64,000 bases of DNA, taken from Magnetococcales bacterium (GTDB lineage Bacteria > Pseudomonadota > Magnetococcia > Magnetococcales > UBA8363). The first letter of the stretch is position 1. The number at the start of each line of letters is the position of its first letter. A program made the position numbers and the translations under genes. Location of the stretch: the NCBI GenBank assembly GCA_015228975.1, contig JADGCN010000002.1, positions 6,323 through 70,322 of the forward strand, written 5' to 3'. Under the pieces are notes generated by a model. It was not told where the DNA came from, did not search any database, and worked only from the letters and a program-made list of their open reading frames with translations. Below are positions 18,891 through 64,000 of the stretch, piece after piece.

Positions 18891-18928
18891 CAAAAACAAA
18901 CAAGCCCTGGATTGACGAATCCAGGGCT
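18891..18928 (-). terminator. Rho-independent terminator of the atp operon
   Basis: Perfect 12-bp stem AAGCCCTGGATT / AATCCAGGGCTT (18901-18912 and 18917-18928) with a 4-nt loop. On the minus strand it is followed by the T-rich run GTTTGTTTTT (18900-18891). Lies 72 nt after the atpC stop. Confidence 0.7.
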
Positions 18929-18999
18929 TGCTGGGTGCAAAATACTGCCAATGAGACGTTCTTGCCATCCATGTCATGTCGGTCGGAGCCGTCGAAAAA

Positions 19000-19419
19000 C
19001 TACAGCCTCTTCAACAGTTTTGAAATCGATGCAATTTGCTCGGCCATGGCGGCGAATTCGCCTTGAGCCCGTGCAAAGTTGATATCGCTCTTAATATTGA
19101 CCACGGCTTCCTGGGCTTCTCGCCTTGCATCCGCAGCCATGGCGGCATCCAGGTCAGCGGCACGTACTATGGAATCGGCCAACACGGTGACAGCATTGGG
19201 ATGGATCTCAAGGATGCCCCCCGCAACGTAAAAGATCTCTTCTGGGCCAACATTTTCCACTTTGATGCGAACCGTGCCGGGTTTAATGCGCGTGATCAAC
19301 GGTGCATGTTTGGGATAAATGCCGAGTTGCCCCACATCCCCAGACAAGATTAAATATTCAGCCTTGCCGGAAAAGATGGATTCCTCAGCACTGACGACAT
19401 AGACTTGCATGGTGCTCAT
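19000..19419 (-). CDS. atpC: F1 ATP synthase epsilon subunit
   Basis: [43 protein letters not shown] matches epsilon. The upstream ORF-track start at 19455 is probably an extension. Confidence 0.92.
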
Positions 19420-19498
19420 AGTGGCTGACCTTGTCGCAGATAGGGGGCTCGGCAACTGGCGGCGTCATCCACCACCAGGACCACCGACCACAAGCGTA

Positions 19499-20908
<1,410 letters not shown>

Positions 20909-20965
20909 TTAATTTATATCATCTATGGTTTGTGACAATACGAACACCGATGCGAAAAACAGATC

Positions 20966-21838
20966 TTATGCGATGGCGGCTGCGCCTCCGACAATCTCCG
21001 AGAGTTCCTTGGTAATCGCCGCTTGCCGCGCTTTGTTGTAACTCAACTGCAAAAGCTCAATAACCGATTTGGCATTATCAGAAGCAGCCTGCATGGCCAC
21101 CATACGTGCGGATTGTTCGGAAGCCATGCTTTCGGTTACGGCCTGGTAGACCAAGGCCTCAATATAACGCACCAAAAGCTCATCCAAAACAAGTTTGGAA
21201 TCCGGCTCATAGATATAATCCCAACTGTACCCGGAATCTTTTTTCACCGTATCAGGCGGAAGAGGCAGCAGCTGGAGCATTCGTGTTTTTTGCACCATGG
21301 TATTGATGAACTGTGAATAAGCCAAGTAGACAACATCGACCTGACCTTCCACATAGGCGTCCAATTGAACTTTGATAGCCCCGATAAACTTATGCATATG
21401 TGGGACATCGCCCATATGGACAACATGTGATATTATCTTAACGCCAAGCCGATTAAGAAAGTTAAAGCCTTTTTGGCCAATGGCCGTGGCCTGGAGGGTA
21501 ATTCCAGCCTGTTCCAACTCTTGCATTTTTGCTGTTACGGAACGCAGAACGTTGGTATTCAAGCCACCACATAAGCCTTTATCGGTGGTCACCACAATAA
21601 ATCCCGCCCCTTTGACCTCCTTGCGTCGCACTAAAAAGGGGTGGCGATATTCTGGGTTTGCACTGGCCAAATGCGCAGCAATGCGCCGCACCCGTTCTTC
21701 GTAAGGACGCGCGGCACGCATGCGATCCTGAGCACGGCGCATTTTAGAAGCCGCAACCATTTCCATGGCTTTGGTAATCCGGCGCGTACTCTGCACACTC
21801 TTAATTTTGGAGCGGATCTCTTTTGAACCGGCCATCAC
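20966..21838 (-). CDS. atpG: F1 ATP synthase gamma subunit
   Basis: 290 aa. [32 protein letters not shown]-terminus and [15 protein letters not shown]-terminus. Confidence 0.97.
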
Positions 21839-21908
21839 CTTCTTCCCTTGGACTCTCGACTATCCGAGCTACCTGTTCGCTTCTGGCTAACAGGGGTACA
21901 TGCAAGCC

Positions 21909-23450
21909 CTAGTAGACCCCTGTTTCCTTGAATTCCTTGACCGCAGCATGCAAAGCAGCCGTTGAACTTTCTGTCAGTTCTTTGTCGCGCTCTATGACTG
22001 TGATCAGCTCCATGTGTTTATTTTCCATGAAGGCACGCATGGATTTCTCACAGGCTTGGGCCTTTTTGACATCAACATCGTCATAGTAGCCATTGTTGAC
22101 GGCAAATAACACCAGCGCCATCTCCCAGACTTGCAATGGTTGGTACCGTGGTTGTTTCATCAATTCGGTTACCATCCGTCCCCGCTCAAGCTGCTTGCGG
22201 GTTGCTTCATCAAGGTCGGAGGCGAACTGTGCAAAGGCGGCCAGTTCCCGATATTGCGCCATGGCGAGACGGACGCCACCACCCAAACTCTTGATGATTT
22301 TCGTCTGTGCGGCACCACCCACGCGGGAGACCGAAATACCCGCATTAATTGCCGGGCGAATACCCGCATTGAACAGATCGGTTTCCAAGAAAATCTGTCC
22401 ATCGGTAATGGAAATGACGTTTGTCGGCACGAACGCTGTAACGTCACCCGCTTGCGTTTCAATGATCGGCAAAGCAGTCAGTGAACCGGTCTTACCCTTG
22501 ACCTCACCCTTGGTGAATCTTTCAACATACTCGGCATTCACCCGGGCTGCACGCTCCAGCAAGCGACTATGGAGATAAAACACGTCGCCAGGATAAGCCT
22601 CACGACCTGGAGGGCGGCGCAGAAGCAGGGAAATTTGCCGATAAGCCACCGCCTGTTTGGATAAATCGTCATAAACGATCAGGGCGTCTTGACCGCGATC
22701 CCGAAAATATTCCCCCATGGTGCAACCGGAATATGGGGCCAAGTATTGCAGGGCGGGAGCTTCGGAAGCAGTGGCCACGACAATGATGGTATAGGCCATG
22801 GCACCGCTTTCTTCCAGTTTGCGGACCACACTCCGGATTGATGAAGCCTTTTGACCAATCGCCACGTAAATACAAATGAGATCTTTCCCAGCCTGGTTGA
22901 TGATCGCGTCAACAGCCACAGCCGTCTTACCCGTTTGCCGGTCGCCGATGATCAACTCGCGCTGGCCACGTCCGATGGGCACCATGGCATCAATGGCTTT
23001 CAAACCGGTCTGCACTGGTTGCGAAACCGATTTACGCTCAATCACACCCGGTGCCACCTTTTCGATGACATCCGTCATTTCAGCATTGATCGGCCCCTTG
23101 CCATCCGTTGGCCGGCCCAGGGCATCGACAACGCGTCCGATCAACTCAGGTCCAACGGGCACTTCCAGGATGCGTCCGGTGCAACGGACCACGTCCCCTT
23201 CGGTGATATGCTCATATTCGCCCAAAATAACCGCACCAACCGAGTCACGCTCCAGATTGAGCGCCAAGCCGAACACATTACCCGGGAACTCCAGCATCTC
23301 GCCCTGCATGACATCTTCCAAGCCGTAGATGCGGCAAATGCCATCGGACACCGAAACAACGGTCCCCTGCGTTCTCGCCTCGGTCGTCACCCCCAATTTT
23401 TGTATTTTCTCTTGCAGCAGATCGCTGACTTCGGAAGGATTCAGTTGCAT
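21909..23450 (-). CDS. atpA: F1 ATP synthase alpha subunit
   Basis: 513 aa. P-loop GDRQTGKT. Full-length alpha. Confidence 0.98.
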
Positions 23451-23612
23451 AGGTACACCTGGTTGACAGTCCAGTTAATAAGCAATTTATCGCCAATGGA
23501 TTATTTCGGACACACTCCGAGAAAAATCAACCCAACGCGATGTTCATAAAACGTCGATCTCCTGCAATCAATCCGCGTACTTGTTCCCATCCGACCGGCC
23601 AAAAAATGTGAA

Positions 23613-24149
23613 TCATGCGGTCAGACTGGCGTAGAGCGCCTCCAGCTTGGCCTGAACCGAACCATTCATCACTTGGTCACCAACGACAACTTTGACGCCG
23701 CCAATCAACGCGGCATCTACGACCACCTGGACCTGAACCGACCGACCAAACTTTTTTGTCAAACGCTGGGTCAAAGTTTTCAACTGTTTGTCGGCAACCG
23801 GCAATGCCGAGTAAACAATTGCGTCAACTGTCCGTTCTCGCTCATTTTTCAAGGCTTCAAACTGGGCGGCGATGGCCGGCAGCAGGGCTATTTTCTTGGC
23901 ATCTACAAGCATGTGTAGGAAAAAACCAGCCTCTGTGGAAAGATCGACAGAGATCAATGAGGTCAGTAAGGTCACCCGCTGCGTTGCACTCAAGTGTGGG
24001 TTGCCCAAGGCGCGACGGACACCTTCTTGGCTCGCCAATTCCGCCAACGCCGTTAACGCCTGGGACCACTCGACTAATTTGCCACTTGCCTCAGCCGCTG
24101 CGAAAGCAGCTTTCGAGTAGGGCCGTGCGACTGTCGCCAACTCAGCCAT
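23613..24149 (-). CDS. atpH: F1 ATP synthase delta (OSCP) subunit
   Basis: 178 aa. VARPYSKAAF start and position between b and alpha. Confidence 0.9.
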   Translation of the reverse strand: MAELATVARPYSKAAFAAAEASGKLVEWSQALTALAELASQEGVRRALGNPHLSATQRVTLLTSLISVDLSTEAGFFLHMLVDAKKIALLPAIAAQFEALKNERERTVDAIVYSALPVADKQLKTLTQRLTKKFGRSVQVQVVVDAALIGGVKVVVGDQVMNGSVQAKLEALYASLTA

Positions 24150-24619
24150 TACAGTTCATCCCGGAGCTGATTCAGAAGTTCAGTATGGGCTTTCGGGTCG
24201 ATTTCCCGACGTAAAATCCGTTCGGCACCCAGGACGGCCAGTCGACCAACTTCTCGACGCAGGGCATCTTTGGCTTTGGCGGTCTCGATTTCCGCCGTTT
24301 CCCGTGCGTGGGTAATAATGCGTTCGGCTTCGACTTTGGCACGTTCCTTGGCATTGTCAATGATCTGAGCGGCACGTTTTTCGTGCGCCGTAATGATATC
24401 GACAGCTTTGCTACGTGCCTCTGCCTCTATGACGCCAACGCGATCCTGAGCTTGATCAAGGCTTTTCCTGCCCTCATCAGCAGCAGCAAGCCCTTCTGCG
24501 ATGTATTTCTGGCGGTCTTCTATAGCCTTGAGCAAGGGCGGCCAGACAAACTTCACCGTGAACCAGATGAAGATCCCGAAGGCGAAGGCCTGCGAAAACA
24601 GAGTGAGATTGATATTCAT
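24149..24619 (-). CDS. atpF: Fo ATP synthase b subunit
   Basis: 156 aa. One N-terminal TM helix followed by a long charged helix (RQKYIAEGLAAADEGRKSL..). Confidence 0.9.
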   Translation of the reverse strand: MNINLTLFSQAFAFGIFIWFTVKFVWPPLLKAIEDRQKYIAEGLAAADEGRKSLDQAQDRVGVIEAEARSKAVDIITAHEKRAAQIIDNAKERAKVEAERIITHARETAEIETAKAKDALRREVGRLAVLGAERILRREIDPKAHTELLNQLRDEL

Positions 24620-24658
24620 GTCAGCACCCTAGCGAGGGATAATCCATTAGGCCAGTGG

Positions 24659-24973
<315 letters not shown>

Positions 24974-25783
24974 TCAATGGCTCTCATGGGCCATCGCGAT
25001 ATAGACGACGGTCAACATCATAAAGATGAATGCTTGCAGGGCAACGATCAAGATGTGAAAAATGGCCCATCCGGCACCCAAAACAATGCCAAAAAATGTC
25101 CCAACCATACCCGTTGCCGCCCACATTCCGAGTAAGAGGAATATGATTTCACCAGCATACATGTTTCCATACAACCGCAGCGAATGCGACAAGGGCTTGG
25201 AAATCAGCTCCACGACATTGAACAGGAAATTGAGAACCCACAATGCCGGATGTTTACCAAATGGGGTGCAGAAGAGTTCATGCATCCAACCGCCAAGGCC
25301 CTTCACTGCGATGTTGAAGTATATCATGATCATCCAGATCGTCAATGCCAGTGCAAAGGTGGTATTGACATCGGCTGTGGGCACGCCACGGAAATGATCC
25401 ACATGCATCAAGCGCTCGTAAAATCGCGACATGATGTCGACTGGCAAAAAATCCATGGAGTTCATGAGAAACACCCAGACAAAAACGGTCAGGGCTGTTG
25501 GTGCAACAAACTTATGCTGATCCCCATGAAAAATACTGCGTACTTGACCATCGACAAATTCAAATGCCAGTTCGACAAAAGCCTGGCGTTTGCTCGGCAC
25601 GCCGCTGGTCGCACCATTCACAACCGTATACAGGAAACCGAAGCCGACAATTCCCAATAGCACAGCAATCAAAAGGGAATCAACGTGGACGACCCAGAAT
25701 GGGCTGTCACCCAGTGGCTTGGCCAACTGAGTCAGGTGGTGGTCTATATAAGACGTGGGTGTAAGCATTTGTTCTGTATTCAC
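24974..25783 (-). CDS. atpB: Fo ATP synthase a subunit (gamma/beta-proteobacterial type)
   Basis: 269 aa. [14 protein letters not shown] contains the essential Arg. Confidence 0.95.
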
Positions 25784-25797
25784 GTTGCTTAAGTACC

Positions 25798-26175
25798 CTA
25801 TTCGTGGGGTTGTTTAATGAAAAACAACGCCAAGCTGAAAACGACGACCGACAGGATGAAGGTCGAAATGAGACCGACCATTTCCACATCTCTGTAGGCG
25901 ACAACGACCAAACCCAGAAGCGCAAACATGACAACGAGCTTGATGACCTCGGCGATAAGGGCCGCCGCAAGGGCCTCAAAGGCAGTGGTGGTATGCTTCT
26001 TTTTGTGTGCAACCAACAAGAAAGCAATATCTCCGATGATGCCTGCCCCACCTCCCAGTGTTGCAGAGATCGCGCTGCTTGCACCAGAAAGCCATGCTGC
26101 TACAATTACTGCCAGGAGAACTGACAACAATTGCAGCCCTATCACTGGGCTGTACCCGTATAACGTGGCCTTCAT
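25798..26175 (-). CDS. atpI: ATP synthase protein I
   Basis: 125-aa four-helix hydrophobic protein at the 5' end of the operon. Confidence 0.75.
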
Positions 26176-26219: not shown

Positions 26220-26355
26220 AATCCTAGGAGAGTGCGTAATCATTGTCAACGAATTTTTTTACTGCACAATAAGAAAAACGGCAAACATTTGCATAGCGCT
26301 TTTATTTCTACATCTCGGATAGTCATAATTGAATTTTTGTCTAGTAAAGTTTATT

Positions 26356-50915: not shown

Positions 50916-50983
50916 TGGCCAAATAACGAGTTCCGGGAAATCTTTCGTGGGGGTCCGGAAGGTTCATCCCATCCGCCTACCCA

Positions 50984-52096: not shown

Positions 52097-52118
52097 GCTA
52101 CCATCCTCTCATTGAGAG

Positions 52119-53525: not shown

Positions 53526-53604
53526 AAGATCATTGGTATTCACGATAATCAAATCGGGGGATGTTCTCCCCAGATCCCTTATTGTTGCAAGTATTGGAAT
53601 CGTT

Positions 53605-54222
53605 CTATGGTTCAGCGTCCAGGATTGACCGCAATCGGCTCCATAACGCATCCATGCCTTCGTTGGTGTGGGCGGAAACGGGAACCACGGGTGGCAATCC
53701 ATATCCGGGTATCCCGGAAATGGCCTCGTGCAAATCTTTGAGGGCTTGTCTGCGGGGGTTGGATTTGAGTTTATCTATTTTGGTCGCGACTGGGAGCCAG
53801 GCGGTTCCGGTTACGGCCAGTAATTCCATCAAGGCCAGGTCCAAATGGGTGACGCCACGGCGTAAATCCAACAGGATCACCACCGCCCGCAATTTTGTCC
53901 GTCCACTCAGATAATGTTCCATGACCCGGTCCCAGACCCGCCGTTGATCCTGGGGGACTTTGGCGTAACCATAGCCCGGCAGATCGACAAACAAAAAGCG
54001 TCCGCCGACGGCAAAAAAATTGATTTCCCGGGTTCTTCCGGGGGTTCGGCTGACGCGGGCCAGGTTTTTTCGATTTAACAATCGGTTCAATAATGAGGAT
54101 TTACCCACATTGGATCGCCCGGCGAAAGCGATTTCCGGGAGTGAGGCTTCGGGGAATCCGCGGGGGTCCACGGCCCCGGTGATGAATTCGGCCTGCCAAT
54201 TGGAATCATAAAGATGGTTCAT
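53605..54222 (-). CDS. engB: Ribosome biogenesis GTP-binding protein YsxC/EngB
   Basis: 206 aa from ATG 54222. G1 motif GRSNVGKSSLLN, PGRT, and G3 motif DLPGYGYA. The ORF-track ORF 53605-55266 extends spuriously upstream, antisense to dusB. Confidence 0.9.
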   Translation of the reverse strand: MNHLYDSNWQAEFITGAVDPRGFPEASLPEIAFAGRSNVGKSSLLNRLLNRKNLARVSRTPGRTREINFFAVGGRFLFVDLPGYGYAKVPQDQRRVWDRVMEHYLSGRTKLRAVVILLDLRRGVTHLDLALMELLAVTGTAWLPVATKIDKLKSNPRRQALKDLHEAISGIPGYGLPPVVPVSAHTNEGMDALWSRLRSILDAEP

Positions 54223-54300
54223 GACGCTTGAAAATGACTCATAAAAGAAGGTACAATCTGCCCGTAAATTAATCTGAGCCACTGATAGCCCGGTCCGATC

Positions 54301-55296: not shown

Positions 55297-55305
55297 GACC
55301 CACGG

Positions 55306-56397
55306 ATGCCAACCGTCACACAGGAAGAAAAATCGCGGGAGTGCCATCCATTTTCCTTGAATCTTTTGTGGGATCACATCGATTTGGCCTTGCTGGCCCT
55401 GGATAACCGCCTCATTGTGCAAAATGTCAACGCCGCCAGTGAGCGTATGTTTGGCAAGACACATCGCTGGCTTGTCGGACAGCCCATTGAATCGTTGCTG
55501 CCAGGTTATCCCGTGGCGTTGGACTTGATTCAACGTGCCCAAATTTTAAACATGCCCTTTCGCAGCCGCAATTCCCGGATATCTCCCGCCCCGGATCGCC
55601 TGCTTTCGGTTTCCCTGACTGTTGTTCCATTGCGTCAAGCCGATGGGCAACCCGTGGGAACGTTGTTGCAATTGGAGGAGATGAGCGACTCGGAACGTTT
55701 GGAGGAAGGGGAACGCTTGAACGAAACATTGGATTCCTTGGGATTTCTGGCCATGTCGGTGGCCCATGAGGTTAAAAATCCCCTGGCGGGCATTCGCGGT
55801 GCCGCCCAACTCATTGAAATGCAATCCCCGAATCCTGCCGCTACCACCTGTACCCAGCTCATTCGATCTGAAGTGGATCGCATCAGCCGGTTGTTGGATT
55901 CGTTATTGGGCTTGGCCGACAACCAGCCGGTCATGGACAAGGAGACCAACATCCACGAAATATTGAACCATGTGCAAAAGGTGATCGGTCCCACAATACC
56001 GGAACCGGTGATCGATTTTGACCCCTCATTGCCCTTTATTCGGGGGGATCGGGATCAATTGGTGCAATTATTCTTGAATATATTACAAAATGCCTTGGAA
56101 GCGGTACGCCATACCCCCAATCCCATGGTGTCGATGCAAACACGAATTTCCGATCGCATCCGTTTTGAACAGGGACGACGACGCAAACAGATCATCATTG
56201 AGATCCAGGATAATGGACCCGGCATTCCCGATGAAATGAAGAAAAAAATTTTCTTGCCGCTTGTGACCACCAAAAGTAAAGGAACCGGCCTGGGATTGAC
56301 CATTTGTCGAAAAATTGTCCACGAACATAATGGTCAGATTGAAGTTGAGAGTCATTCGGGTCGTACCATTTTTCGCATATTCCTTCCCATACCCTGA
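55306..56397 (+). CDS. ntrB: Nitrogen regulation sensor histidine kinase NtrB-like
   Basis: PAS N-terminus, H-box SVAHEVKNPLAGIRGAAQL and an HATPase domain (GTGLGLTICRKIV). Lies in dusB-ntrB-ntrC synteny. Confidence 0.82.
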   Translation: MPTVTQEEKSRECHPFSLNLLWDHIDLALLALDNRLIVQNVNAASERMFGKTHRWLVGQPIESLLPGYPVALDLIQRAQILNMPFRSRNSRISPAPDRLLSVSLTVVPLRQADGQPVGTLLQLEEMSDSERLEEGERLNETLDSLGFLAMSVAHEVKNPLAGIRGAAQLIEMQSPNPAATTCTQLIRSEVDRISRLLDSLLGLADNQPVMDKETNIHEILNHVQKVIGPTIPEPVIDFDPSLPFIRGDRDQLVQLFLNILQNALEAVRHTPNPMVSMQTRISDRIRFEQGRRRKQIIIEIQDNGPGIPDEMKKKIFLPLVTTKSKGTGLGLTICRKIVHEHNGQIEVESHSGRTIFRIFLPIP

Positions 56398-56398
56398 T

Positions 56399-57865
56399 AT
56401 GAACCGCCACCAAAAAACCATCCTGATCGCCGACGATGACGCTTCCATTCGCTTTGTCCTGGAAACCGCATTGACTCAGGCGGGTTTTGTCGTCGAAACA
56501 TTTGATAACTGCAAAGATTTGTTAGGTCGCGCATCGCATGGGCATGGTGATCTCGTGATCACCGATATTGTCATGCCGGGGGGATCGGGGCTCGACCTGC
56601 TTAAAACACTCAAGACATTGCGACCTGAAATGCCGGTTATTGTGATCACGGCTCAGAGTACTCTGAGAAATGCGGTGAGCGCTTTTGAACGGGGGGCGTT
56701 TGAATATTTATCCAAACCATTCGATATCATTAAAATAGTGGAACTGATTGGTCGCGCCCTGGACAGCCATGTCACCCATACCCCGAAAAGGGGGGTGGAT
56801 ATGGATCGATTTGGCGGCATCATCGGCTCTTCCCGGGCCATGCAGGAATTGTTTCGCACGATTGGTCGCCTGGCCAACTCGGAAATGACGGTGTTGATTC
56901 ATGGCGAATCGGGGACTGGCAAGGAGTTGGTCGCTCGGGCTATCCATGCTCATAGTCCCAGGCGGCATGGTCCATTCACAGCCATCAACATGGCCGCCAT
57001 CCCGAAAAACCTGGTGGAAAGCGATTTGTTTGGCCACGAAAAGGGGGCTTTCACCGGGGCCATTTCGCGGCGAACCGGGCATTTTGAACGCACGCGGGAA
57101 GGGACGTTGTTCCTTGATGAAATCGGCGATATGCCCATGGAGGCCCAGACGCGACTGCTCAGGGTCTTGCAAAATGGTACCTTTACCCGTATCGGTGGCA
57201 CGGAAATCATCAGTGCCAACGTGCGCATCATTGCGGCTACGCATCAGGACCTGCCCTTGGCCATCACCAGTGGGCGGTTCCGCGAAGATTTGTTTTACCG
57301 TTTGAATGTCATTCCCCTGAGTGTGCCATCGTTGCGCTCCCGACCCGAAGACATCCCGCTCTTGTGCGATTATTTCTTTGCGCAGGTTGCCAAAAAAACC
57401 AATATTCCGCCCAAATGGTTCACCCCGGAGGCGCTGGCCCTGTTGCAGTCGTACAACTGGCCGGGCAATGTGCGGGAGCTGGAAAATTTGATTCAACGGC
57501 TCATGATTTTGTCGCCCCACGAAACAATCGGTTTGGATCGGTTGGATTTTATTGGCGGCAACGAATCCGTGAACACGTCCCCGGATTCCACTACAACCCG
57601 GTTGGACCCCCCGCACCTGTCGTCACGTCCCATGCCGGGACCATCCCTGGAAGACAGCGTGATCGCCTTTGTGGATCGCTGTTTCGCCAAAGGCGACCGC
57701 GAAGAGATCACCGATCTTTACGACATGGTATTGCGGAATGTGGAAAAGACACTGTTTGAAAGGGTATTGCAGGAAACCAAAGGGAATCGTATCAAGGCGG
57801 CGCGCATTCTCGGACTCAACAGGAATACCTTGCGGAAAAAATGTGGTGATCTTGGATTGGATTGA
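56399..57865 (+). CDS. ntrC: Sigma-54-dependent response regulator NtrC-like
   Basis: ATG 56399 lies 1 nt after the ntrB stop. REC domain (ILIADDD), AAA+ Walker A GESGTGKE, GAFTGA motif and a C-terminal Fis-type HTH. Confidence 0.9.
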   Translation: MNRHQKTILIADDDASIRFVLETALTQAGFVVETFDNCKDLLGRASHGHGDLVITDIVMPGGSGLDLLKTLKTLRPEMPVIVITAQSTLRNAVSAFERGAFEYLSKPFDIIKIVELIGRALDSHVTHTPKRGVDMDRFGGIIGSSRAMQELFRTIGRLANSEMTVLIHGESGTGKELVARAIHAHSPRRHGPFTAINMAAIPKNLVESDLFGHEKGAFTGAISRRTGHFERTREGTLFLDEIGDMPMEAQTRLLRVLQNGTFTRIGGTEIISANVRIIAATHQDLPLAITSGRFREDLFYRLNVIPLSVPSLRSRPEDIPLLCDYFFAQVAKKTNIPPKWFTPEALALLQSYNWPGNVRELENLIQRLMILSPHETIGLDRLDFIGGNESVNTSPDSTTTRLDPPHLSSRPMPGPSLEDSVIAFVDRCFAKGDREEITDLYDMVLRNVEKTLFERVLQETKGNRIKAARILGLNRNTLRKKCGDLGLD

Positions 57866-57932
57866 ATAGACGACCGGGACATCCGTACACTTTGCGGCAA
57901 AAATTAATGCGGCGCGACTCCTTATTTTTGGG

Positions 57933-57964
57933 CCGGGGCGTTGACAGTTGGCTCCGGTTTTTTT
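57933..57964 (+). terminator. Possible weak rho-independent terminator after ntrC
   Basis: CCGGGG (57933-38) pairs with CTCCGG (57952-57) including one G-U pair, with a 13-nt loop and a T7 run. Confidence 0.35.
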
Positions 57965-57969
57965 AGGAT
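57941..57969 (+). promoter_or_regulatory. Candidate sigma-70 promoter for the second Fo cluster
   Basis: TTGACA (57941-46), 17-nt spacer, TAGGAT (57964-69). Lies about 60 nt upstream of the first ATG at 58027. Confidence 0.35.
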
Positions 57970-58026
57970 GTCTGCCCAGGGTGTTCTGGGGGCGCTCTGG
58001 GCTTGTTCGGGGGGCATGTAGTTGCT

Positions 58027-58293
58027 ATGGGAACCGCTATGGGAACCAATGACGGCGAGGCGCACCTGCGGAAACCCCGGAAGCGTGAGGTTCCCGGTGT
58101 GGGCTTGGCCATGCGTTTGGGAACTGAACTCGTTGTGTCTACGATGGTTGGCACCGGGTTGGGCTACATGGCGGACCATTGGTTGAATTCGGGCCCCTGG
58201 TTTACAGTCGTGTTTTTGTTTTTCGGTGCCGCTGCGGGTATTCGCAACGTGTATCGCTTGGTCAATACCAATACCGATTCGGCTTCAACCTGA
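58027..58293 (+). CDS. AtpZ/AtpI-type ATP synthase protein I (alphaproteobacterial type)
   Basis: GLAMRLGTELVVSTMVGTGLGYMADHWLNSGPWFTVVFLFFGAAAGIRNVYR matches the AtpZ/AtpI pattern. The ORF-track TTG start is at 58003. Confidence 0.7.
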   Translation: MGTAMGTNDGEAHLRKPRKREVPGVGLAMRLGTELVVSTMVGTGLGYMADHWLNSGPWFTVVFLFFGAAAGIRNVYRLVNTNTDSAST

Positions 58294-58309
58294 AGAGATT
58301 GATGAGACC

Positions 58310-59074
58310 ATGACCGCAACCGCCCCCGTCGTTGCCGCTGCAGCGCCAAAAATGGATCCCCTGCACCATTTCCATGTGACCAAATACCTGGATTTTGATT
58401 ACCTGGGGATCGATGTGGCCATATCCAACTCGGTCCTGTGGATGTGGATCGCCGCTGGCTTGGTCCTGCTCTTTTTTCATTTAGCTTTCAAAAATCCCCG
58501 GATCGTACCGGGAAGGCTGCAAAGTCTTGGCGAGGCCGGTTATTTGTTCATTCGCGGTATCGTCGATGACATCGTCGGCGAAAAGGGGCGTCCCTTCTTC
58601 CCCTACATATTCACCCTGTTTTTCTTCATCCTCTTTTGCAACCTCGCTGGCTTGATCCCGGGTTCCTTCACAGTGACCTCACAACTGATCGTGACCGCGA
58701 CCTTTTCCTTGATGATCGTCGGGTTTTCTTTTGTGTATGGCTTTTATATGCATGGCACGCACTACTTCAAGTTTTTCGTTCCCTCCGGTGTCCCCGTATT
58801 GCTGATGCCGCTGATGATCCCCATCGAGATCATCTCGTTTCTGGCCAGACCGGTTTCCTTGGCCGTGCGTCTGTTCGCCAATATGACCGCGGGCCATACC
58901 ATGCTGGCGGTCATGTTTTTGTATGTTGTCACGCTGCCGTGGTGGGGAGCTTGGTTGCCCTTCGGTTTTACAGTCATCTTTACCGGCGTGGAAATTTTCA
59001 TCGGTTTCATTCAGGCCTATATCTTTACCATCCTGACCTGTGTCTACATCAATGATTCGATACACATGCATTGA
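58310..59074 (+). CDS. atpB: Fo ATP synthase a subunit, second copy (alphaproteobacterial/mitochondrial type)
   Basis: 254 aa from the Met at 58310. SLAVRLFANMTAGH contains the essential Arg, and MDPLHHF lies near the N-terminus. Confidence 0.9.
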   Translation: MTATAPVVAAAAPKMDPLHHFHVTKYLDFDYLGIDVAISNSVLWMWIAAGLVLLFFHLAFKNPRIVPGRLQSLGEAGYLFIRGIVDDIVGEKGRPFFPYIFTLFFFILFCNLAGLIPGSFTVTSQLIVTATFSLMIVGFSFVYGFYMHGTHYFKFFVPSGVPVLLMPLMIPIEIISFLARPVSLAVRLFANMTAGHTMLAVMFLYVVTLPWWGAWLPFGFTVIFTGVEIFIGFIQAYIFTILTCVYINDSIHMH

Positions 59075-59146
59075 CATCAGCGTAGGAACGTGGCACACAT
59101 AGACCCCTGTTCATTTTCAAGCTTGCCCTCGGAAGGAGAGATTTCA

Positions 59147-59374
59147 ATGGATGCCACAGCAGCCGCTTTGATCGGGATGGGACTTGCCGCACTGGGATTC
59201 GCTGGATCCGGCGTGGGACTCGGGGTTCTGTTCGGTAAAGCCATCGAAGCCATCGCCCGCCAACCCGCGGCGGAAGCCCAACTGGCCAAATATATCTGGA
59301 TTGGCATGGCCTTCGTCGAAGCTGTGGCCCTTTACGGCTTGGTCGTCGCGTTCATTATCATGGGCAAGGCCTGA
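59147..59374 (+). CDS. atpE: Fo ATP synthase c subunit, second copy (Glu-type)
   Basis: 75 aa. AIARQP loop and AFVEAVALYGL with the carboxylate Glu. Confidence 0.9.
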   Translation: MDATAAALIGMGLAALGFAGSGVGLGVLFGKAIEAIARQPAAEAQLAKYIWIGMAFVEAVALYGLVVAFIIMGKA

Positions 59375-59380
59375 TTGACC

Positions 59381-59947
59381 ATGATTGCCTCCGCCTACGC
59401 CGCCACTGCGGAGCATGCCGCTGCCGGTTCAGGTATGCCCCAGTTCGAACCTTCCGTGTTCCAGCACCAGATCGTCTGGTCCATTGCCTCGTTTTTTGTT
59501 CTGCTGTACTTGCTCAAGAAGTATGTCCTGCCCCCTATCGAAAAAATTCTTGATGAACGCGGCGGCAAGATTCGCTCTGACTTGGAGGCCGCCGAGAAAA
59601 GCAGACAGGAGGCGGATAAGATTCGTCAGGATGTTCAAAGGCAACTTGCGGCAGCGCGTCGGTTGGCTGATCAGACCGTTGAGGAAGCACGTCTTGAGGC
59701 AGCCAAATATCGCGATCTCGCCAGGGAATCCTTGACTCAGGAGCTTGCCAAGAAAAAGAGCGTTGCTTTGGCGGAAATTGACGCCGCCAAGCGGGCTGCC
59801 GTTGCCGAATTGCATGACGCCGTGGTGGATATCGCCATGCTGGCTACGGAAAAGTTGATCGCCAAGAGTATGAACAAAAATGATGTCAACAAGGTTGTCC
59901 AAGAGGCTGTTGCCGCGATCCAGGCCAATCCGGGAAAATTACAGTAA
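59381..59947 (+). CDS. Fo ATP synthase b'-type subunit
   Basis: GMPQFEPSVF motif (MPQL-like, as in alphaproteobacterial b'), one TM helix, then a long charged helix (ERGGKIRSDLEAAEKSRQEA..). Confidence 0.82.
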   Translation: MIASAYAATAEHAAAGSGMPQFEPSVFQHQIVWSIASFFVLLYLLKKYVLPPIEKILDERGGKIRSDLEAAEKSRQEADKIRQDVQRQLAAARRLADQTVEEARLEAAKYRDLARESLTQELAKKKSVALAEIDAAKRAAVAELHDAVVDIAMLATEKLIAKSMNKNDVNKVVQEAVAAIQANPGKLQ

Positions 59948-60005
59948 TCGGGGCTGGGATCCTGTGACCCTTTTCTTTCGTTCCCTTGTTTGGTGACGCT
60001 TGCGT

Positions 60006-60296
60006 CTACTCGGTGGGTTTGATTGCTTGGGGTGCATTTTTGTCAATGAACAGGATGTCGTCGGGGTAGACAAGGCCCAGGTCGCGACGCGCCACCTCCT
60101 CGAAGACCACCGTTTCTTTGTCCAGCAGTGAAATTTCCTCTTTCAGTCGTTCCAGGCGTTCCTCGACCTCCCGGTTTTCCTGCCGGACTGCCAGGAGCTG
60201 TTGTTTGGTCTGGCGCCAGCGGACCAAGCCCTGGTCACCGAACCACAGGAGGTACTGTGCCCAACCATTGGCAGTCAAAAGAAAGAGCCCTGCCAT
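60006..60296 (-). CDS. ftsB: Cell division protein FtsB (septum formation initiator)
   Basis: TM helix MAGLFLLTANGWAQYLLWFGDQG, then a coiled coil and RRDLGLVYPDD. I prefer the Met at 60296. The ORF-track start at 60371 adds 25 aa. Confidence 0.8.
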   Translation of the reverse strand: MAGLFLLTANGWAQYLLWFGDQGLVRWRQTKQQLLAVRQENREVEERLERLKEEISLLDKETVVFEEVARRDLGLVYPDDILFIDKNAPQAIKPTE

Positions 60297-60369
60297 GACC
60301 CATGCAGAGTTGCTTTTTTCCGGTGTGGTCAAATCGATGTCTCCCTCAATTTTGGATCTTTCAAGTGCC

Positions 60370-61029
60370 ATGAATAGTCATTCCCGGGAACTTTCGCATG
60401 CATTTTTAAACTTTGCCCTCGAGAGCCAAGTCTTGCGTTTTGGGCGGTTTACCACCAAAGCGGGGCGGGAATCCCCCTATTTTTTTGATGCCGGTCTGTT
60501 TAACACCGGGGCCAAGCTGGAAGCCCTCGGGCGTTTTTACGCAGAAACCATCCAGAACCATACGTTGAATTATTCCATGCTGTTCGGTCCAGCCTACAAG
60601 GGGATTGCTTTGGCGACAACAACCGCTTCGGCGTTGTCTCGTTATTATGGTTTGGATATTCCCATCGCGTTCAATCGCAAGGAAGCCAAAGACCATGGTG
60701 AAGGTGGTCAGATGATCGGTTCCCCTTTGACCGGTCGGGTATTGGTCGTGGATGACGTGATCAGTGCCGGCACTTCCGTTGGCGAATCGGCGAACTGGAT
60801 CAAGGCCGCCAAGGCTGAATTATCGGGTGTCATTGTCGCCCTGGACAGGCAAGAGCGCAGCGGCAGCGACAGCCGTAGTGCCGTTCAGCAGGTGGAAGAT
60901 ACGTACGGGGTGCCAGTCATTGCCATCGCCCGGCTGGATGACCTAGTCCATTTGCTTGCTGGAGATGCTGAACATCGTGGCCACCTGCCGGCAATCCTTG
61001 AATATCGCAAACAGTATGGGGTGGATTGA
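60370..61029 (+). CDS. pyrE: Orotate phosphoribosyltransferase
   Basis: FALESQVLRFGRFTTKAGRESPYFFD and the PRPP motif VLVVDDVISAGTS. The ORF-track start at 60118 runs antisense through ftsB. Confidence 0.93.
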   Translation: MNSHSRELSHAFLNFALESQVLRFGRFTTKAGRESPYFFDAGLFNTGAKLEALGRFYAETIQNHTLNYSMLFGPAYKGIALATTTASALSRYYGLDIPIAFNRKEAKDHGEGGQMIGSPLTGRVLVVDDVISAGTSVGESANWIKAAKAELSGVIVALDRQERSGSDSRSAVQQVEDTYGVPVIAIARLDDLVHLLAGDAEHRGHLPAILEYRKQYGVD

Positions 61030-61039
61030 CCGAACCCTT

Positions 61040-61522
61040 CTATTTGCACATTTTTACCGATTTGACAGCCTTGCCTGATCCTTTCAGGACCACCGTGTAA
61101 CTGAAATTTTGCTTGCCATTGGAAAATTCCACGTGCATCTTGGTTTTCCTGGCCAAATTGTCGAGTATGCCCTCGGTGTTTTCAAGGTATTGCCAACGCC
61201 AGTTGTTGTCCTTGGCAGCGGCATCTTTGACGAAAGGAATATCGCGGGCTTTGTCATTATCGAATTTAATGGAGATTTTTTCGTGGGCTAAACCAATGCG
61301 CGGTTTTTCGGTAAACAGTTCGCCGTAGTAGTCGTCGGCTGGAAACAAGGCAATAATGGCAGCGGGTTGCCGATCATTTTCGTGCAGTTGGATTTCAAGC
61401 TTGCAGGTGTTGTCCACCTTGCGAACTGTAAACGGTCCACTTTTGAACATTTCACCGGCCTGTACGGCTCCCCATGGGGTCGACAGAACCAGCAGAGACG
61501 CTAGAATAAGGGGCAGTCGCAT
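61040..61522 (-). CDS. Secreted hypothetical protein
   Basis: Signal peptide MRLPLILASLLVLSTPWGAVQA from the Met at 61522. No family recognised. Confidence 0.55.
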   Translation of the reverse strand: MRLPLILASLLVLSTPWGAVQAGEMFKSGPFTVRKVDNTCKLEIQLHENDRQPAAIIALFPADDYYGELFTEKPRIGLAHEKISIKFDNDKARDIPFVKDAAAKDNNWRWQYLENTEGILDNLARKTKMHVEFSNGKQNFSYTVVLKGSGKAVKSVKMCK

Positions 61523-61783
61523 TCCGCGGTTCTCCTTTTCTTGATGCACATCGATTGACACCCGCCAGGAACCTTGCGGATGCGTGAGGGGTTCCTGAGT
61601 ATCTTTAATATCCAAAGGGGGGCATTATAGCCTGTTCAAAATCATCCCGCCAGAGCTTCTTTGCAAAAAAGTTTGGTATGATGAAGAATGATCCCCGACC
61701 GGTGTCCAAATTGGACTGTCTTGACGAGGATGCACGGTTGCATGAGGGCTTAATGAGGAACAACTTGACAGGAGAGTTCTGTA

Positions 61784-64000
61784 ATGACGGTCACAGGTGA
61801 ACGTATCCGTTGGCTGAAAGGGGCGCTGGAACGGCGTATCCTTGTTCTGGACGGTGCCATGGGGACGATGATTCAACGGCGTTGTTTGAGTGAACAGGAT
61901 TTTCGCGCTTCACGCTTTGCCAATCATCCGGTCGATCTGAAGGGTAACAATGATTTGTTATCCTTGACCCAGCCGGAAGTGATCCGGGAAATTCATCGCA
62001 GTTACCTGGAGGCGGGTGCCGACCTCATCTCCACCAATACCTTCAATGCCAATGCGGTTTCCATGGCCGACTATGGCATGGCGGATCTGGCCTATGAAAT
62101 CAATCGGGAGGGGGCGCGGCTGGCGAGGGAGGTGTGCCACCATTTTGAAGCGACGCACGGGGGGGATCCTCACTTGGTGGTTGGTATTCTGGGACCCACC
62201 AATCGAACCGCCTCCATTTCCCCGGATGTAAACAATCCCGGTTTCCGCAATATATCCTTTGTAGAGTTGCGGGATGCCTATGCCGAATCCATTCGTGGCT
62301 TGGTCGATGGGGGCGTGGATGTGATCATGGTTGAAACCATTTTCGATGCGTTGAACGCCAAGGCGGCCCTTTTGGCGCTCATGGAGTTCAATGATAACCG
62401 TGATGCGGCGCTTCCCATCCTGATTTCCGGCACCCTCACCGATGGTTCCGGGCGGACCCTGACAGGTCAGACGGTTGAGGCCTTTTGGAATTCGGTGGCC
62501 CATGCCGAACCGTTGTCCATGGGCTTTAATTGTGCCCTGGGGGCGGAACAATTACGTCCGCACGTCCAGGAATTGTCTGGTTTGTGTGAACGGTTCGTTT
62601 CGGTTCACCCCAATGCGGGATTACCCAATGAGTTGGGCGCGTACGACGAAACGCCCCTTAAAATGGCCGCCAAGGTCAAGGAATTCGCCGAGTCGGGATG
62701 GGTCAATATTGTCGGGGGGTGTTGTGGTACGACTCCCGATCATATTCGAGCCATCGCCGATGCGGTTCAGGGGATTCCCCCGAGGATTCCCCCGGCCAGA
62801 AAGCACCAGTGTCGTTTGAGCGGCCTGGAAGCGTTTACCATCAGCCCCGGCTCGTTGTTCGTCAATGTCGGTGAGCGGACCAATGTATCGGGATCGCGTC
62901 GTTTTGCCCGTTTGATTCGGGAAGAGGCGTTTGAAGAGGCGCTCGCCATAGCCCGGCAACAGGTCGAGGACGGGGCCAATGTCATTGATATCAACATGGA
63001 TGACCCCATGTTGAATGCCCGGGAATCCATGGTCCGGTTTATCAATCTGGTGGCCGCCGAGCCCGATATCAGTCGGGTACCCATCATGTTGGATTCCTCT
63101 GATTGGGAGGTGTTGCTGGCGGGACTGCGTTGCCTTCAAGGCAAGGGAATCGTCAATTCCATCAGCCTGAAAGAGGGCGAAGAGGCGTTTCTTGCCAAAG
63201 CAAGCCAGGCCAGGTGCCATGGTGCGGCCGTATTGGTGATGGCGTTCGATGAACAGGGACAGGCCGATTCCCGGGAGCGTCGCCGCGCCATCTGCAAACG
63301 GGCTTATGACCTTTTGGTGACCCGGGTCGGATTTTATCCCAGTGATATTATTTTTGATGCCAATGTGTTTGCCGTGGCGACCGGTATTGAGGAACACAAT
63401 GCCTACGCTTTGGACTTTATCGACACGGTCGCCTGGATCAAAACCCATTTACCCGGCGCCCTGACCAGTGGTGGCATCAGCAATGTTTCGTTTTCCTTCC
63501 GGGGCTTTGAACGTATTCGAGAGGGGATGCATGCCGTATTCCTATATCATGCGATCAAGGCCGGTCTCGACATGGGTATTGTCAATCCCGGCCAACTGGC
63601 GGTCTATGAAGCCATTCCCGGGGAGTTGCGGGTGTTGTTGGAAGATGTGATTCAAAATACCGATCCCCTGGCGACGGAAAGATTGTTGGCGGTGGCCGAG
63701 CGGTATCGGGAATCGGGGGAGGCCAAGGGCGATACCCGGGATGCGCAATGGCGGCAGGAGCCGGTGGCGCAACGTTTGATCCATGCCATGGTCAAGGGGG
63801 TGACTGAGTATATCGATGCCGATGTGGAAGAGGCGCGGCTGGCCGCATCACATCCCCTGGACGTGGTGGAAGGCCCTTTGATGGAGGGGATGAATCGGGT
63901 TGGGGAATTGTTTGGTTCGGGACGCATGTTCCTTCCCCAGGTGGTCAAGAGTGCCCGGGTGATGAAAAAAGCGGTGGCTTGGTTGGTGCCTTACATCGAG
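61784..64000 (+). CDS. metH: Cobalamin-dependent methionine synthase, 5' part (truncated by window end)
   Basis: Frame is open from ATG 61784 to the window end (739 codons). Hcy-binding region ([20 protein letters not shown]), pterin-binding region ([18 protein letters not shown]) and the start of the B12-cap region. Absent from the ORF track because no stop lies in the window. Confidence 0.95.

What the first reader, a model, noticed from the sequence alone, without database searches (positions are those of the whole stretch)
58003..59947. Second, Fo-only ATP synthase cluster of alphaproteobacterial/mitochondrial type alongside a complete gamma-type atpIBEFHAGDC operon
Seen in sequence: the operon at 19000-26175 encodes all nine subunits, with an E. 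coli-like a subunit ([11 protein letters not shown]) and an Asp-type c subunit. A separate cluster at 58.0-59.9 kb encodes AtpZ/I, an a subunit (VRLFANMTAGH), a Glu-type c subunit (AFVEAVALYGL) and a b'-type subunit (MPQFEP motif). It is followed by ftsB on the other strand, with no delta, alpha, gamma, beta or epsilon genes. Established knowledge: Alphaproteobacteria split the enzyme into atpIBEF'F and atpHAGDC operons. Inference: either a second F1 operon exists elsewhere (two complete enzymes of different ancestry), or two alternative proton-conducting Fo sectors share one F1.
Basis: partly seen in the sequence, partly recalled or inferred. Interest (0 to 1): 0.55.

Follow-up and report, generated by a model that had tools for sequence, protein, structure and literature searches.

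The report
Split native ATP synthase plus acquired operon
The "orphan" membrane-sector gene cluster is the normal first half of this magnetotactic bacterium's own split ATP synthase, whose second half lies about 3 kb beyond the window's end. The complete operon elsewhere in the window is an extra, betaproteobacterial-type enzyme that appears to have been acquired from another lineage, so this is ordinary biology with a modest evolutionary twist.

Summary
Window 58.0-59.9 kb encodes atpZ, a, c and one b'-type subunit of alphaproteobacterial/mitochondrial type, and 19.0-26.2 kb encodes a full atpIBEFHAGDC operon.

The Fo cluster is not orphaned. The window matches a Magnetococcales MAG contig of 92,483 bp: five proteins are identical, with accessions MBF01387xx. 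That contig also carries a native delta (MBF0138794.1) and alpha (MBF0138795.1), seven and eight genes after b'.

In two collinear relatives (96.8% nucleotide identity) the order is atpZ-a-c-b' | ftsB | pyrE | hyp | metH | GDPD | Sua5 | atpH-A-G-D-C | glmU | glmS. atpH would start near window coordinate 67,170. The window ends inside metH.

This split Fo / F1 arrangement is found across Magnetococcales, including Magnetococcus marinus MC-1, and is known for Alphaproteobacteria.

The complete operon is the odd one out:
- It is closest to betaproteobacterial primary operons (beta 85-88%, a up to 74%).
- It lacks their gidAB-parAB and glmUS flanks.
- It was seen only in one tight Magnetococcales clade.

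Both gene sets are under strong purifying selection. The verdict is two ordinary enzymes of different ancestry. The shared-F1 idea is unnecessary. Interest is low to moderate.

The parts
57941..57969 (+). Promoter-like site TTGACA-N17-TAGGAT upstream of native atpZ
   Evidence: Found. The exact motif occurs only twice in the window, against 0 expected from shuffles. It is conserved at the same place in relatives L003-L005, L008-L013 and L098-L099. This is a consensus match only; function has not been shown.
58003..58293 (+). atpZ/atpI-family small membrane protein of the native Fo operon. The ORF runs from TTG 58003, with a likely ATG start at 58027.
   Evidence: PF09527 at 70 bits against a cutoff of 26.6. 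The sequence was read. The MC-1 orthologue is named an AtpZ/AtpI family protein.
58310..59074 (+). Native Fo subunit a (atpB) of alphaproteobacterial/mitochondrial type. The public annotation starts at 58352 (240 aa).
   Evidence: NF004482 at 303 bits against a cutoff of 225, and PF00119. The best solved structure is the Paracoccus a subunit 5dn6_X at 151 bits, against 51 bits for E. coli. It is identical to MBF0138785.1. dN/dS is 0.05-0.08.
59147..59374 (+). Native Fo subunit c (atpE), 75 aa, with a Glu carboxylate
   Evidence: PF00137 and TIGR01260. The exact protein is found in 18 Magnetococcales contigs.
59375..59947 (+). Native b'-type stator subunit (atpF'), 190 aa. It is the only b-type gene of the native set.
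   Evidence: PF00430 at 77 bits. The N-terminus also matches PF05933 and PF02326, the mitochondrial ATP8 models. It is identical to MBF0138787.1. dN/dS is 0.03-0.13.
60006..60371 (-). ftsB, convergent with the Fo operon; marks the 3' boundary of the Fo operon
   Evidence: PF04977 at 59 bits. It is identical to MBF0138788.1.
61784..64000 (+). 5' part of metH, running off the window end. It is part of the 7.2-kb spacer between the native Fo and F1 operons. By collinearity, atpH would begin near coordinate 67,170.
   Evidence: The frame is open for 739 codons to the window end, and its N-terminus matches MetH of L098. Collinearity at 96.8% identity comes.
19000..26175 (-). Second, complete F1Fo operon of betaproteobacterial type. 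Genes: atpI 25798-26175, atpB 24974-25783, atpE 24659-24931, atpF 24149-24619, atpH 23613-24149, atpA 21909-23450, atpG 20966-21838, atpD 19499-20893, atpC 19000-19419.
   Evidence: The beta subunit is 85-88% identical to Burkholderiales sequences. Subunit-by-subunit comparison is, metagenomic relatives and their context, and dN/dS of 0.01-0.18.
26221..26249 (-). Promoter-like site TTGACA-N17-TAGGAT upstream of atpI of the complete operon, with the same hexamers and spacing as the site upstream of native atpZ
   Evidence: It is conserved in L006/L007 and absent from the betaproteobacterial-type loci fetched.
18899..18932 (-). Intrinsic-terminator-like hairpin (15-bp stem followed by a T run) just downstream of atpC of the complete operon

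Best explanation
The genome is a Magnetococcales bacterium and encodes two separate, complete, proton-type F1Fo ATP synthases.

**Enzyme 1, the lineage's own.**
- Its genes are split in the alphaproteobacterial manner.
- The Fo operon (atpZ-a-c-b') is the cluster at 58.0-59.9 kb.
- The F1 operon (atpH-A-G-D-C, followed by glmU-glmS) starts about 7.2 kb downstream, roughly 3.2 kb past the window end.
- Six unrelated genes lie between the two operons: ftsB, pyrE, a hypothetical gene, metH, a GDPD-family gene and a Sua5/YciO-family gene.
- The a/c-ring/b' sector conducts protons and anchors the stator. It couples to the native alpha3beta3-gamma-delta-epsilon head.
- With only one b-type gene, the stator is presumably a b' homodimer. 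This is an inference.

**Enzyme 2, the additional one.**
- It is the nine-gene atpIBEFHAGDC operon at 19.0-26.2 kb.
- It is a self-sufficient betaproteobacterial-type enzyme.
- It was most likely gained by horizontal transfer of the operon alone into one clade of Magnetococcales.

No sharing of F1 between two Fo sectors needs to be invoked.
For: **Identity of the source.**
- Five window proteins are identical to MBF0138743.1 (beta), MBF0138748.1 (c), MBF0138785.1 (a), MBF0138787.1 (b') and MBF0138788.1 (FtsB), all on one 92,483-bp contig.
- The same contig carries native delta MBF0138794.1 and native alpha MBF0138795.1.
- The accession numbering fits the gene order seen in L098.

**The native F1 operon.**
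- L098 and L099 are 96.8% identical to the window and collinear with it from 49149 to 64000.
- They show atpZ-a-c-b', six intervening genes, then atpH (179 aa), atpA (531), atpG (290), atpD (472), atpC (138), glmU and glmS.
- MC-1 and a relative at 90% alpha identity have the same atpHAGDC-glmU-glmS arrangement.
- The Fo cluster, with its upstream engB-dus-HK-sigma54 regulator synteny, is conserved across Magnetococcales.

**Matching ancestry of native Fo and F1.**
- Subunit a matches Magnetococcales at 57-87% identity, then Zetaproteobacteria and Nitrospirota.
- Native alpha matches Magnetococcales at 76-92%, then Alphaproteobacteria at 67-74%.
- By best solved structure, native beta matches mitochondrial (781 bits) and Paracoccus (764) sequences above E. 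coli (664). Native a matches Paracoccus.

**The complete operon.**
- After the Magnetococcales copy itself, the best 120 beta hits are named Burkholderiales or unnamed sequences at 85-88%.
- It is nearer a betaproteobacterial-type operon than E. coli in 8 of 9 subunits. It is only 26-66% identical to the native set.
- Its closest metagenomic relatives (a subunit 50-74%) mostly sit in gidA-gidB-parA-parB-atp-glmU-glmS contexts, which the window lacks.

**Both sets are functional.** All reading frames are intact, and dN/dS is 0.01-0.18 for nearly all genes.

**Literature.** A split between b and delta is the known pattern of alpha-proteobacteria and nitrospirae (PMC4154653).
Against: - The native gamma, beta and epsilon genes were seen only in the 96.8%-identical relatives, not in the window's own assembly. 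That assembly is not indexed for DNA retrieval.
- The native set has one b-type gene where Alphaproteobacteria have b and b'. A second b gene elsewhere in the genome was not excluded.
- The direction and date of the transfer are inferred, not shown by a rooted phylogeny. The operon's G+C (51.8%) equals that of the host (53%), and its closest a subunit is only 74% identical. The donor is therefore unsampled or the event is old.
- Nothing here shows expression or assembly of either enzyme.
Confidence: 0.9

Rival explanations
1. Two alternative proton-conducting Fo sectors share the single F1 encoded in the complete operon.
For: Within the 64-kb window, only one set of F1 genes is visible.
Against: A dedicated native F1 operon exists 7.2 kb downstream. 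Its delta and alpha genes are on the window's own contig. The native delta is only 26% identical to the other operon's delta. The native b', which must bind delta, is 28% identical to the other b. Swiss-Prot names for MC-1 subunits a, b and beta carry no paralogue numbers, suggesting one enzyme built from just the split set.
Confidence: 0.03
2. The Fo cluster is a decaying relic of an enzyme that was replaced by the complete operon.
For: None beyond its apparent isolation in the window.
Against: All four frames are intact. dN/dS is 0.03-0.13 against relatives at 79-97% nucleotide identity. Subunit c is 100% conserved across relatives whose dS is 0.7. The partner F1 operon is present and intact.
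Confidence: 0.01
3. The complete operon is an assembly or binning artefact: a betaproteobacterial fragment joined to a Magnetococcales contig.
For: Its nearest named relatives are Betaproteobacteria, and the source is a metagenome-assembled genome.
Against: The same junctions and flanks occur in the window and in two other assemblies, L006 and L007. In GCA_015232675.1 both ATPase loci lie on one 145-kb contig. G+C is uniform across the junctions. The operon's synonymous divergence between strains (0.09-0.19 for the five F1 genes, lower for the Fo genes) is similar to or below that of the native Fo genes (0.11-0.21).
Confidence: 0.02
4. The complete operon is ancestral to Magnetococcales, as an old paralogue, and was lost in most lineages rather than gained by transfer.
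For: Its composition is fully host-like. No close donor was found: the best a subunit match is 74%.
Against: It was found only in one cluster of MAGs at 90% identity or above. No Magnetococcales beta lies between 88% and 100% identity. Swiss-Prot names for MC-1 subunits carry no paralogue numbers. The operon nests by similarity with betaproteobacterial primary operons and has lost their conserved flanks, while the native F1 keeps atpC-glmU-glmS.
Confidence: 0.05

Closest known systems
Alphaproteobacterial split ATP synthase loci (atpI-B-E-F'-F and atpH-A-G-D-C), for example Paracoccus denitrificans and Rhodospirillum rubrum; the split between b and delta is described in PMC4154653
   Same: The Fo genes sit in one operon headed by an AtpZ/I-family gene, and the F1 genes sit in a separate atpHAGDC operon. 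Subunit a has the VRLFANMTAGH-type motif, subunit c uses Glu, and b' begins with an MPQ(F/L) motif. The best structural relatives are the Paracoccus and mitochondrial enzymes.
   Different: Only one b-type gene (b'-like) is present instead of a b'/b pair. In this clade the two operons are just six genes apart. In MC-1 they are about 215 protein accession numbers apart.
Magnetococcus marinus MC-1 ATP synthase (Fo with a = Mmc1_3674/A0LDW6, c = A0LDW7, b = A0LDW8; F1 with beta = A0LDA0, delta = A0LDA3)
   Same: It has orthologous atpZ-a-c-b' and atpHAGDC-glmU-glmS operons. It has the same sigma54-regulator gene upstream of Fo and Sua5 upstream of atpH.
   Different: MC-1 shows no sign of the additional betaproteobacterial-type operon, since its Swiss-Prot subunit names carry no paralogue numbers. 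Protein identity to the window is 58% (a), 76% (c) and 45% (b').
Primary atpIBEFHAGDC operon of Betaproteobacteria and Gammaproteobacteria (E. coli unc operon; Burkholderia 'beta 1', PDB 4q4l)
   Same: It has the same nine genes in the same order, AtpI of PF03899, an E. coli-like a subunit ([11 protein letters not shown]) and an Asp-type c subunit. The beta subunit is 85-88% identical to Burkholderiales and 81% to E. coli.
   Different: The window operon sits without the gidAB(-parAB) upstream genes and glmUS downstream genes that flank these operons. Instead it lies between a PAS histidine kinase/receiver pair and phbB in a Magnetococcales genome.
[quoted passage not shown]
   Same: One genome carries two full sets of F-type ATPase genes, with horizontal transfer as the usual explanation.
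   Different: The extra set here is not an N-ATPase. It has delta, lacks atpQ/atpR, keeps the canonical order, and scores far below the NCBIfam 'alternate F1F0' cutoffs. The two sets also belong to different proteobacterial classes rather than being close duplicates.

Membership tests
Alphaproteobacterial-type split F1Fo ATP synthase | A contiguous Fo operon with an AtpZ/AtpI-family gene followed by a, c and b-type genes | tested here: met
   PF09527, PF00119, PF00137 and PF00430 occur in that order at 58003-59947. The same order is seen in Magnetococcales loci L001, L003-L005 and L008-L013.
Alphaproteobacterial-type split F1Fo ATP synthase | The locus is split between b and delta, with a separate atpH-A-G-D-C operon | tested here: met
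   L098/L099 (96.8% identical and collinear) carry atpHAGDC 7.2 kb downstream of b'. Native delta and alpha are on the window's own contig. The pattern is described in PMC4154653.
Alphaproteobacterial-type split F1Fo ATP synthase | The subunit sequences belong to the alpha/mitochondrial sequence types | tested here: met
   Subunit a scores 303 bits on NF004482, above the cutoff of 225. By PDB matches, a is best matched by Paracoccus 5dn6_X, and native beta is best matched by mitochondrial and Paracoccus sequences. After Magnetococcales, the nearest relatives of native alpha are Alphaproteobacteria.
Alphaproteobacterial-type split F1Fo ATP synthase | Two different b-type stator genes (b' and b) in the Fo operon | tested here: not met
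   There is a single b-type gene. The next gene is ftsB on the opposite strand in the window, an unrelated gene in MC-1-like L001, and a sigma54 activator in L003/L010. No b gene lies upstream of atpH. A copy elsewhere in the genome was not excluded.
Alphaproteobacterial-type split F1Fo ATP synthase | Catalytically essential residues: the Arg of subunit a and the carboxylate of subunit c | tested here: met
   The Arg lies in VRLFANMTAGH and the Glu in AFVEAVALYGL, read directly from the translations. The Gln and Ser/Thr positions known as Na+ ligands in the Ilyobacter c subunit appear absent. This comparison was made from memory and read by eye, and was not modelled.
Canonical beta/gamma-proteobacterial atpIBEFHAGDC operon | Nine genes in the order I-a-c-b-delta-alpha-gamma-beta-epsilon on one strand | tested here: met
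Canonical beta/gamma-proteobacterial atpIBEFHAGDC operon | Sequence types of I, a, c and b | tested here: met
   PF03899 scores 27.4 bits against a cutoff of 25.1. NF004477 scores 337.5 against 280. NF005363 scores 110.4 against 71. NF004411 scores 195 against 131. The best PDB match for a is E. coli 5t4o_K.
Canonical beta/gamma-proteobacterial atpIBEFHAGDC operon | Chromosomal context: gidA-gidB(-parA-parB) upstream and glmU-glmS downstream | tested here: not met
   The window has a PAS histidine kinase plus receiver upstream and phbB downstream. The canonical context is seen in L100, in E. coli L101 and in most long metagenomic relatives.
N-ATPase (atpDCQRBEFAG) | Gene order D-C-Q-R-B-E-F-A-G, presence of atpQ/atpR and absence of delta | tested here: not met
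   Both sets have delta, and the complete operon has the canonical order. The NCBIfam alternate-F1F0 models score 77 and 46 bits against a cutoff of 302 (a). For c they score 37 and 27 against 131, and for b 36 and 45 against 225.

The most novel reading that the evidence does not exclude
The two enzymes are not redundant. The acquired betaproteobacterial-type enzyme (Asp-type c) and the native alpha-type enzyme (Glu-type c, single b') would differ in c-ring stoichiometry or in preferred direction. The cell would deploy them under different redox or proton-motive-force regimes at the oxic-anoxic interface where these magnetotactic cocci live. The identical TTGACA-N17-TAGGAT promoter-like sites in front of both operons would reflect recruitment of the foreign operon into the host's own ATP-synthase regulon. 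A more extreme version, in which subunits of the two sets mix, is not excluded but has no support.
Probability: 0.15. Interest if true: 0.45.

Novelty: new member of a known kind. Interest (0 to 1): 0.2.

Why it matters
For the scan, the main value is corrective. An apparently F1-less Fo cluster near a window edge should not be read as an orphan, because the partner operon here lies only about 3 kb beyond the end.

Biologically, the split Fo / F1 arrangement in Magnetococcales strengthens their resemblance to Alphaproteobacteria and mitochondria. It differs in having one b-type gene whose N-terminus resembles mitochondrial ATP8.

The one mildly new point is that a tight clade of freshwater Magnetococcales MAGs carries a second, canonical ATP synthase operon of betaproteobacterial type, maintained under selection. 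My paper searches found no report of such an operon in this order. Whole-locus second copies that are not N-ATPases are uncommon (PMC4154653). This clade could therefore serve as a natural case for asking why a cell keeps two proton F-ATP synthases.

Tried and rejected
**Look-ups that failed**
- Exact-sequence look-ups of the window's a subunit (254 and 240 aa), of b', and of P0241 all failed. The window's own assembly is not in the gene-position index, and a TTG start is not read as Met. I reached the flanking DNA through near-identical relatives instead.

**A misleading search result**
- The first homology search appeared to show no a subunit closer than 84%.
- This was misleading, because only cluster representatives are listed.
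- The 98-100% identical proteins sit inside the P0001 cluster.

**Search for an empty insertion site**
- I searched metagenome contigs with the adjacent 346-aa hypothetical protein to find an empty site for the complete operon. Nothing was found.
- An alignment of frameshifted a-subunit fragments was too poor to search with.

**Taxonomy of the complete operon's relatives**
- The library of representatives at 50% identity gave no taxonomic information for the complete operon's a subunit. The top hits were fragments and unnamed metagenome proteins.

**Hypotheses rejected**
- N-ATPase identity for either set.
- A relic or pseudogene.
- An assembly chimera.
- A second b gene immediately after b' or immediately before atpH.
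- A promoter shared with the native F1 operon. No TTGACA-N17-TAGGAT site lies upstream of atpH, even allowing 2 mismatches.

**Other negative results**
- The window contains no tRNA genes and no Rfam families.
- Literature searches found no paper describing two F-type ATP synthases in Magnetococcales.
Full report
**1. What is in the window**

On the + strand at 58003-59947:
- An AtpZ/AtpI-family protein (PF09527).
- An a subunit that passes the curated cutoff of NF004482 (303 bits against 225).
- A 75-aa Glu-type c subunit.
- One 190-aa b/b'-type subunit beginning ...MPQFEP.
- ftsB follows on the opposite strand.

On the - strand at 19000-26175 lies a complete atpI-B-E-F-H-A-G-D-C operon. Its a, c and b subunits pass the cutoffs of the E. 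coli-like NCBIfam models NF004477, NF005363 and NF004411.

Neither set is an N-ATPase. The 'alternate F1F0' models score far below their cutoffs, and delta is present.

**2. Whose genome this is**

- The a subunit of the Fo cluster finds Magnetococcales proteins at 57-87% identity, including Magnetococcus marinus MC-1. Zetaproteobacteria and Nitrospirota follow.
- Five window proteins are identical, residue for residue, to NCBI MAG proteins:

| Protein | Accession |
|---|---|
| beta of the complete operon | MBF0138743.1 |
| c of the complete operon | MBF0138748.1 |
| native a | MBF0138785.1 |
| native b' | MBF0138787.1 |
| FtsB | MBF0138788.1 |

- All five are recorded on one 92,483-bp contig of a 'Magnetococcales bacterium'.
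- That assembly is not indexed for DNA retrieval.
- Two other assemblies, GCA_015232675.1 and GCA_002753595.1, are 96.4-96.8% identical to the window and collinear with it up to its last base.

**3. The missing F1 genes**

The gene order in L098/L099, the collinear relatives, is as follows:
- A sigma54 response regulator.
- atpZ, a, c, b'.
- ftsB(-), pyrE, a hypothetical gene (-), metH, a GDPD-family gene and a Sua5/YciO-family gene.
- atpH (179 aa), atpA (531), atpG (290), atpD (472), atpC (138).
- glmU and glmS.

Transferred to window coordinates, atpH starts near 67,170. The window stops at 64000 inside metH, whose frame opens at 61784 and is still open at the end.

For the window's own assembly, the native delta (MBF0138794.1) and alpha (MBF0138795.1) lie on the same 92-kb contig. 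Their accession numbers are the 7th and 8th after b', exactly as in L098.

So the 'Fo-only' appearance is an edge effect.

**4. The split enzyme is the lineage's own**

- The four-gene Fo operon is found in every Magnetococcales locus examined, including MC-1-like contigs. So is the upstream run of engB, dus, a histidine kinase and a sigma54 regulator.
- atpHAGDC-glmU-glmS, with Sua5 upstream, is found in MC-1 (CP000471.1) and in a relative at 90% alpha identity.
- The native alpha is 76-92% identical across Magnetococcales. Alphaproteobacteria follow at 67-74%.
- Against solved structures:
  - The native beta matches mitochondrial (781 bits) and Paracoccus (764) enzymes better than E. coli (664).
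  - The native a matches Paracoccus (151 bits) far better than E. coli (51).
- A split between b and delta is the published pattern for alpha-proteobacteria and nitrospirae (PMC4154653).
- One departure: there is only one b-type gene, where Alphaproteobacteria have b' and b.
  - No second b gene follows b' or precedes atpH in any locus.
  - Swiss-Prot names the MC-1 protein simply 'subunit b'.
  - I infer a b' homodimer stator, but a distant second gene was not excluded.

**5. The complete operon is the foreign one**

- After the Magnetococcales copy itself, its beta subunit's best 120 hits are named Burkholderiales or unnamed sequences at 85-88% identity. No other Magnetococcales cluster appears among them.
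- The cluster at 90% identity or above holds only four MAG proteins and one read-assembly protein.
- Subunit-by-subunit identities of the complete operon:

| Subunit | vs betaproteobacterial-type L100 (%) | vs E. coli (%) | vs native set (%) |
|---|---|---|---|
| a | 50 | 47 | 29 |
| c | 65 | 52 | 34 |
| b | 51 | 42 | 28 |
| delta | 40 | 32 | 26 |
| alpha | 76 | 69 | 59 |
| gamma | 64 | 55 | 39 |
| beta | 87 | 81 | 66 |
| epsilon | 55 | 46 | 31 |

- A metagenome scan with its a subunit returned 80 loci at 50-74% identity.
  - Most of the longer ones show the classic gidA-gidB-parA-parB-atpIBEFHAGDC(-glmU-glmS) context, as do L100 and E. coli.
  - A few lack the gid/par genes within the upstream DNA held.
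- In the window the operon has neither flank.
  - It sits between a PAS histidine kinase/receiver pair and phbB.
  - The native F1 operon is the one that keeps atpC-glmU-glmS.
- I therefore read the operon as a horizontally acquired, operon-only insertion from the betaproteobacterial radiation.
- The transfer is not recent from any sampled donor.
  - G+C (51.8%) matches the host (53%).
  - GC3 is only slightly below that of the native genes.
  - The best a subunit match is 74%.
- It is not an assembly artefact.
  - Three assemblies share the junctions.
  - One 145-kb contig holds both ATPase loci.
  - Synonymous divergence between strains in the operon (0.09-0.19 for the F1 genes) is similar to or below that of the native Fo genes (0.11-0.21).

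**6. Both sets look functional**

- All frames are intact.
- The key residues are present: Arg in a, Glu or Asp in c.
- dN/dS is 0.03-0.13 for native a, b' and atpZ, and 0 for c.
- dN/dS is 0.01-0.18 for eight of the nine genes of the complete operon. atpI, the least constrained gene, reaches 0.5 on very few substitutions.
- A strong terminator-like hairpin follows atpC of the complete operon.
- A curiosity concerns the exact spaced motif TTGACA-N17-TAGGAT.
  - It occurs only twice in the 64 kb, with none expected from shuffles.
  - One copy is upstream of native atpZ and the other is upstream of atpI of the complete operon.
  - It is conserved at both places in relatives and absent from the betaproteobacterial-type loci.
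  - It is not present upstream of native atpH.
  - This suggests both operons use a similar host promoter, but it is a consensus match only.

**7. Verdict**

- Observation: confirmed.
- Interpretation: the first alternative (two complete enzymes of different ancestry) is right. The second (a shared F1) is unnecessary. 'Gamma-type' should read 'beta/gamma-type, nearer beta'.
- The Fo cluster itself is already known biology and is already annotated in public records.
- The modestly new element is a second, canonical ATP synthase of betaproteobacterial type kept under selection in one Magnetococcales clade. My paper searches found no report of this.
- Whole-locus extra copies that are not N-ATPases are uncommon but known.
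- Interest: 0.2.

**8. Limits**

- The native gamma, beta and epsilon genes were read in 96.8%-identical relatives, not in the window's own assembly.
- The direction of transfer rests on similarity ranking, distribution and synteny, not on a rooted tree.
- Nothing here shows expression, assembly or ion specificity.

Noticed in passing
window 57941-57969 (+) and 26221-26249 (-): The exact motif TTGACA-N17-TAGGAT occurs only twice in the window, against 0 in 100 shuffles. One copy lies upstream of native atpZ and the other upstream of atpI of the acquired operon. It is conserved at both sites in related Magnetococcales loci, absent from the betaproteobacterial-type loci fetched, and absent upstream of native atpH.
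   Followed up: partly
window 59375-59947 (+): The N-terminus of the native b' subunit (MPQFEPSVFQHQIVWSIASFF...) passes the Pfam cutoffs of the mitochondrial ATP8 families. PF05933 scores 28.1 bits against 26.1, and PF02326/YMF19 scores 24.3 against 22.6. It is the only b-type gene of the native set in every Magnetococcales locus seen.
   Followed up: partly
window 55306-57865 (+); also L001 2-1039 and L003/L008/L010/L011: An NtrB/NtrC-like pair (a PAS histidine kinase plus a sigma54-dependent response regulator) lies immediately upstream of the native Fo operon on the same strand. This adjacency is conserved across Magnetococcales, including MC-1-like contigs. No sigma54 promoter was searched for.
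   Followed up: no
window 26356-28613 (-): A multi-PAS histidine kinase (620-aa ORF) and a stand-alone receiver protein (132 aa) lie directly upstream of the acquired operon on the same strand. They are also present in L006/L007. Whether they arrived with the operon is unknown.
   Followed up: no
L098 10001-11596 (native atpA, beyond the window end): The native alpha subunit is 530-531 aa in this clade and in many other Magnetococcales MAGs. In MC-1, PR-3, Magnetofaba and Alphaproteobacteria it is 507-509 aa. The difference is a C-terminal extension of about 24 residues.
   Followed up: no
window 28725-30589 (+) compared with L095 (MC-1) 6079-9994: In MC-1, purD-purE-Sua5 directly precede native atpH. 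In the window's lineage purD-purE lie next to the acquired operon's kinase at about 29-30.6 kb. Sua5-atpH lies about 36 kb further on, with the native Fo operon in between. The Fo and F1 operons are six genes apart here but about 215 accession numbers apart in MC-1.
   Followed up: partly
window 7127-17949 (+): A run of large genes precedes phbB. It comprises a 1124-aa polysaccharide-export/SLBB protein, a 687-aa aldolase_II plus short-chain dehydrogenase fusion, a 1367-aa protein whose only Pfam hit is the HA domain (PF03457), and a 346-aa protein with no family and no metagenome relatives.
   Followed up: no
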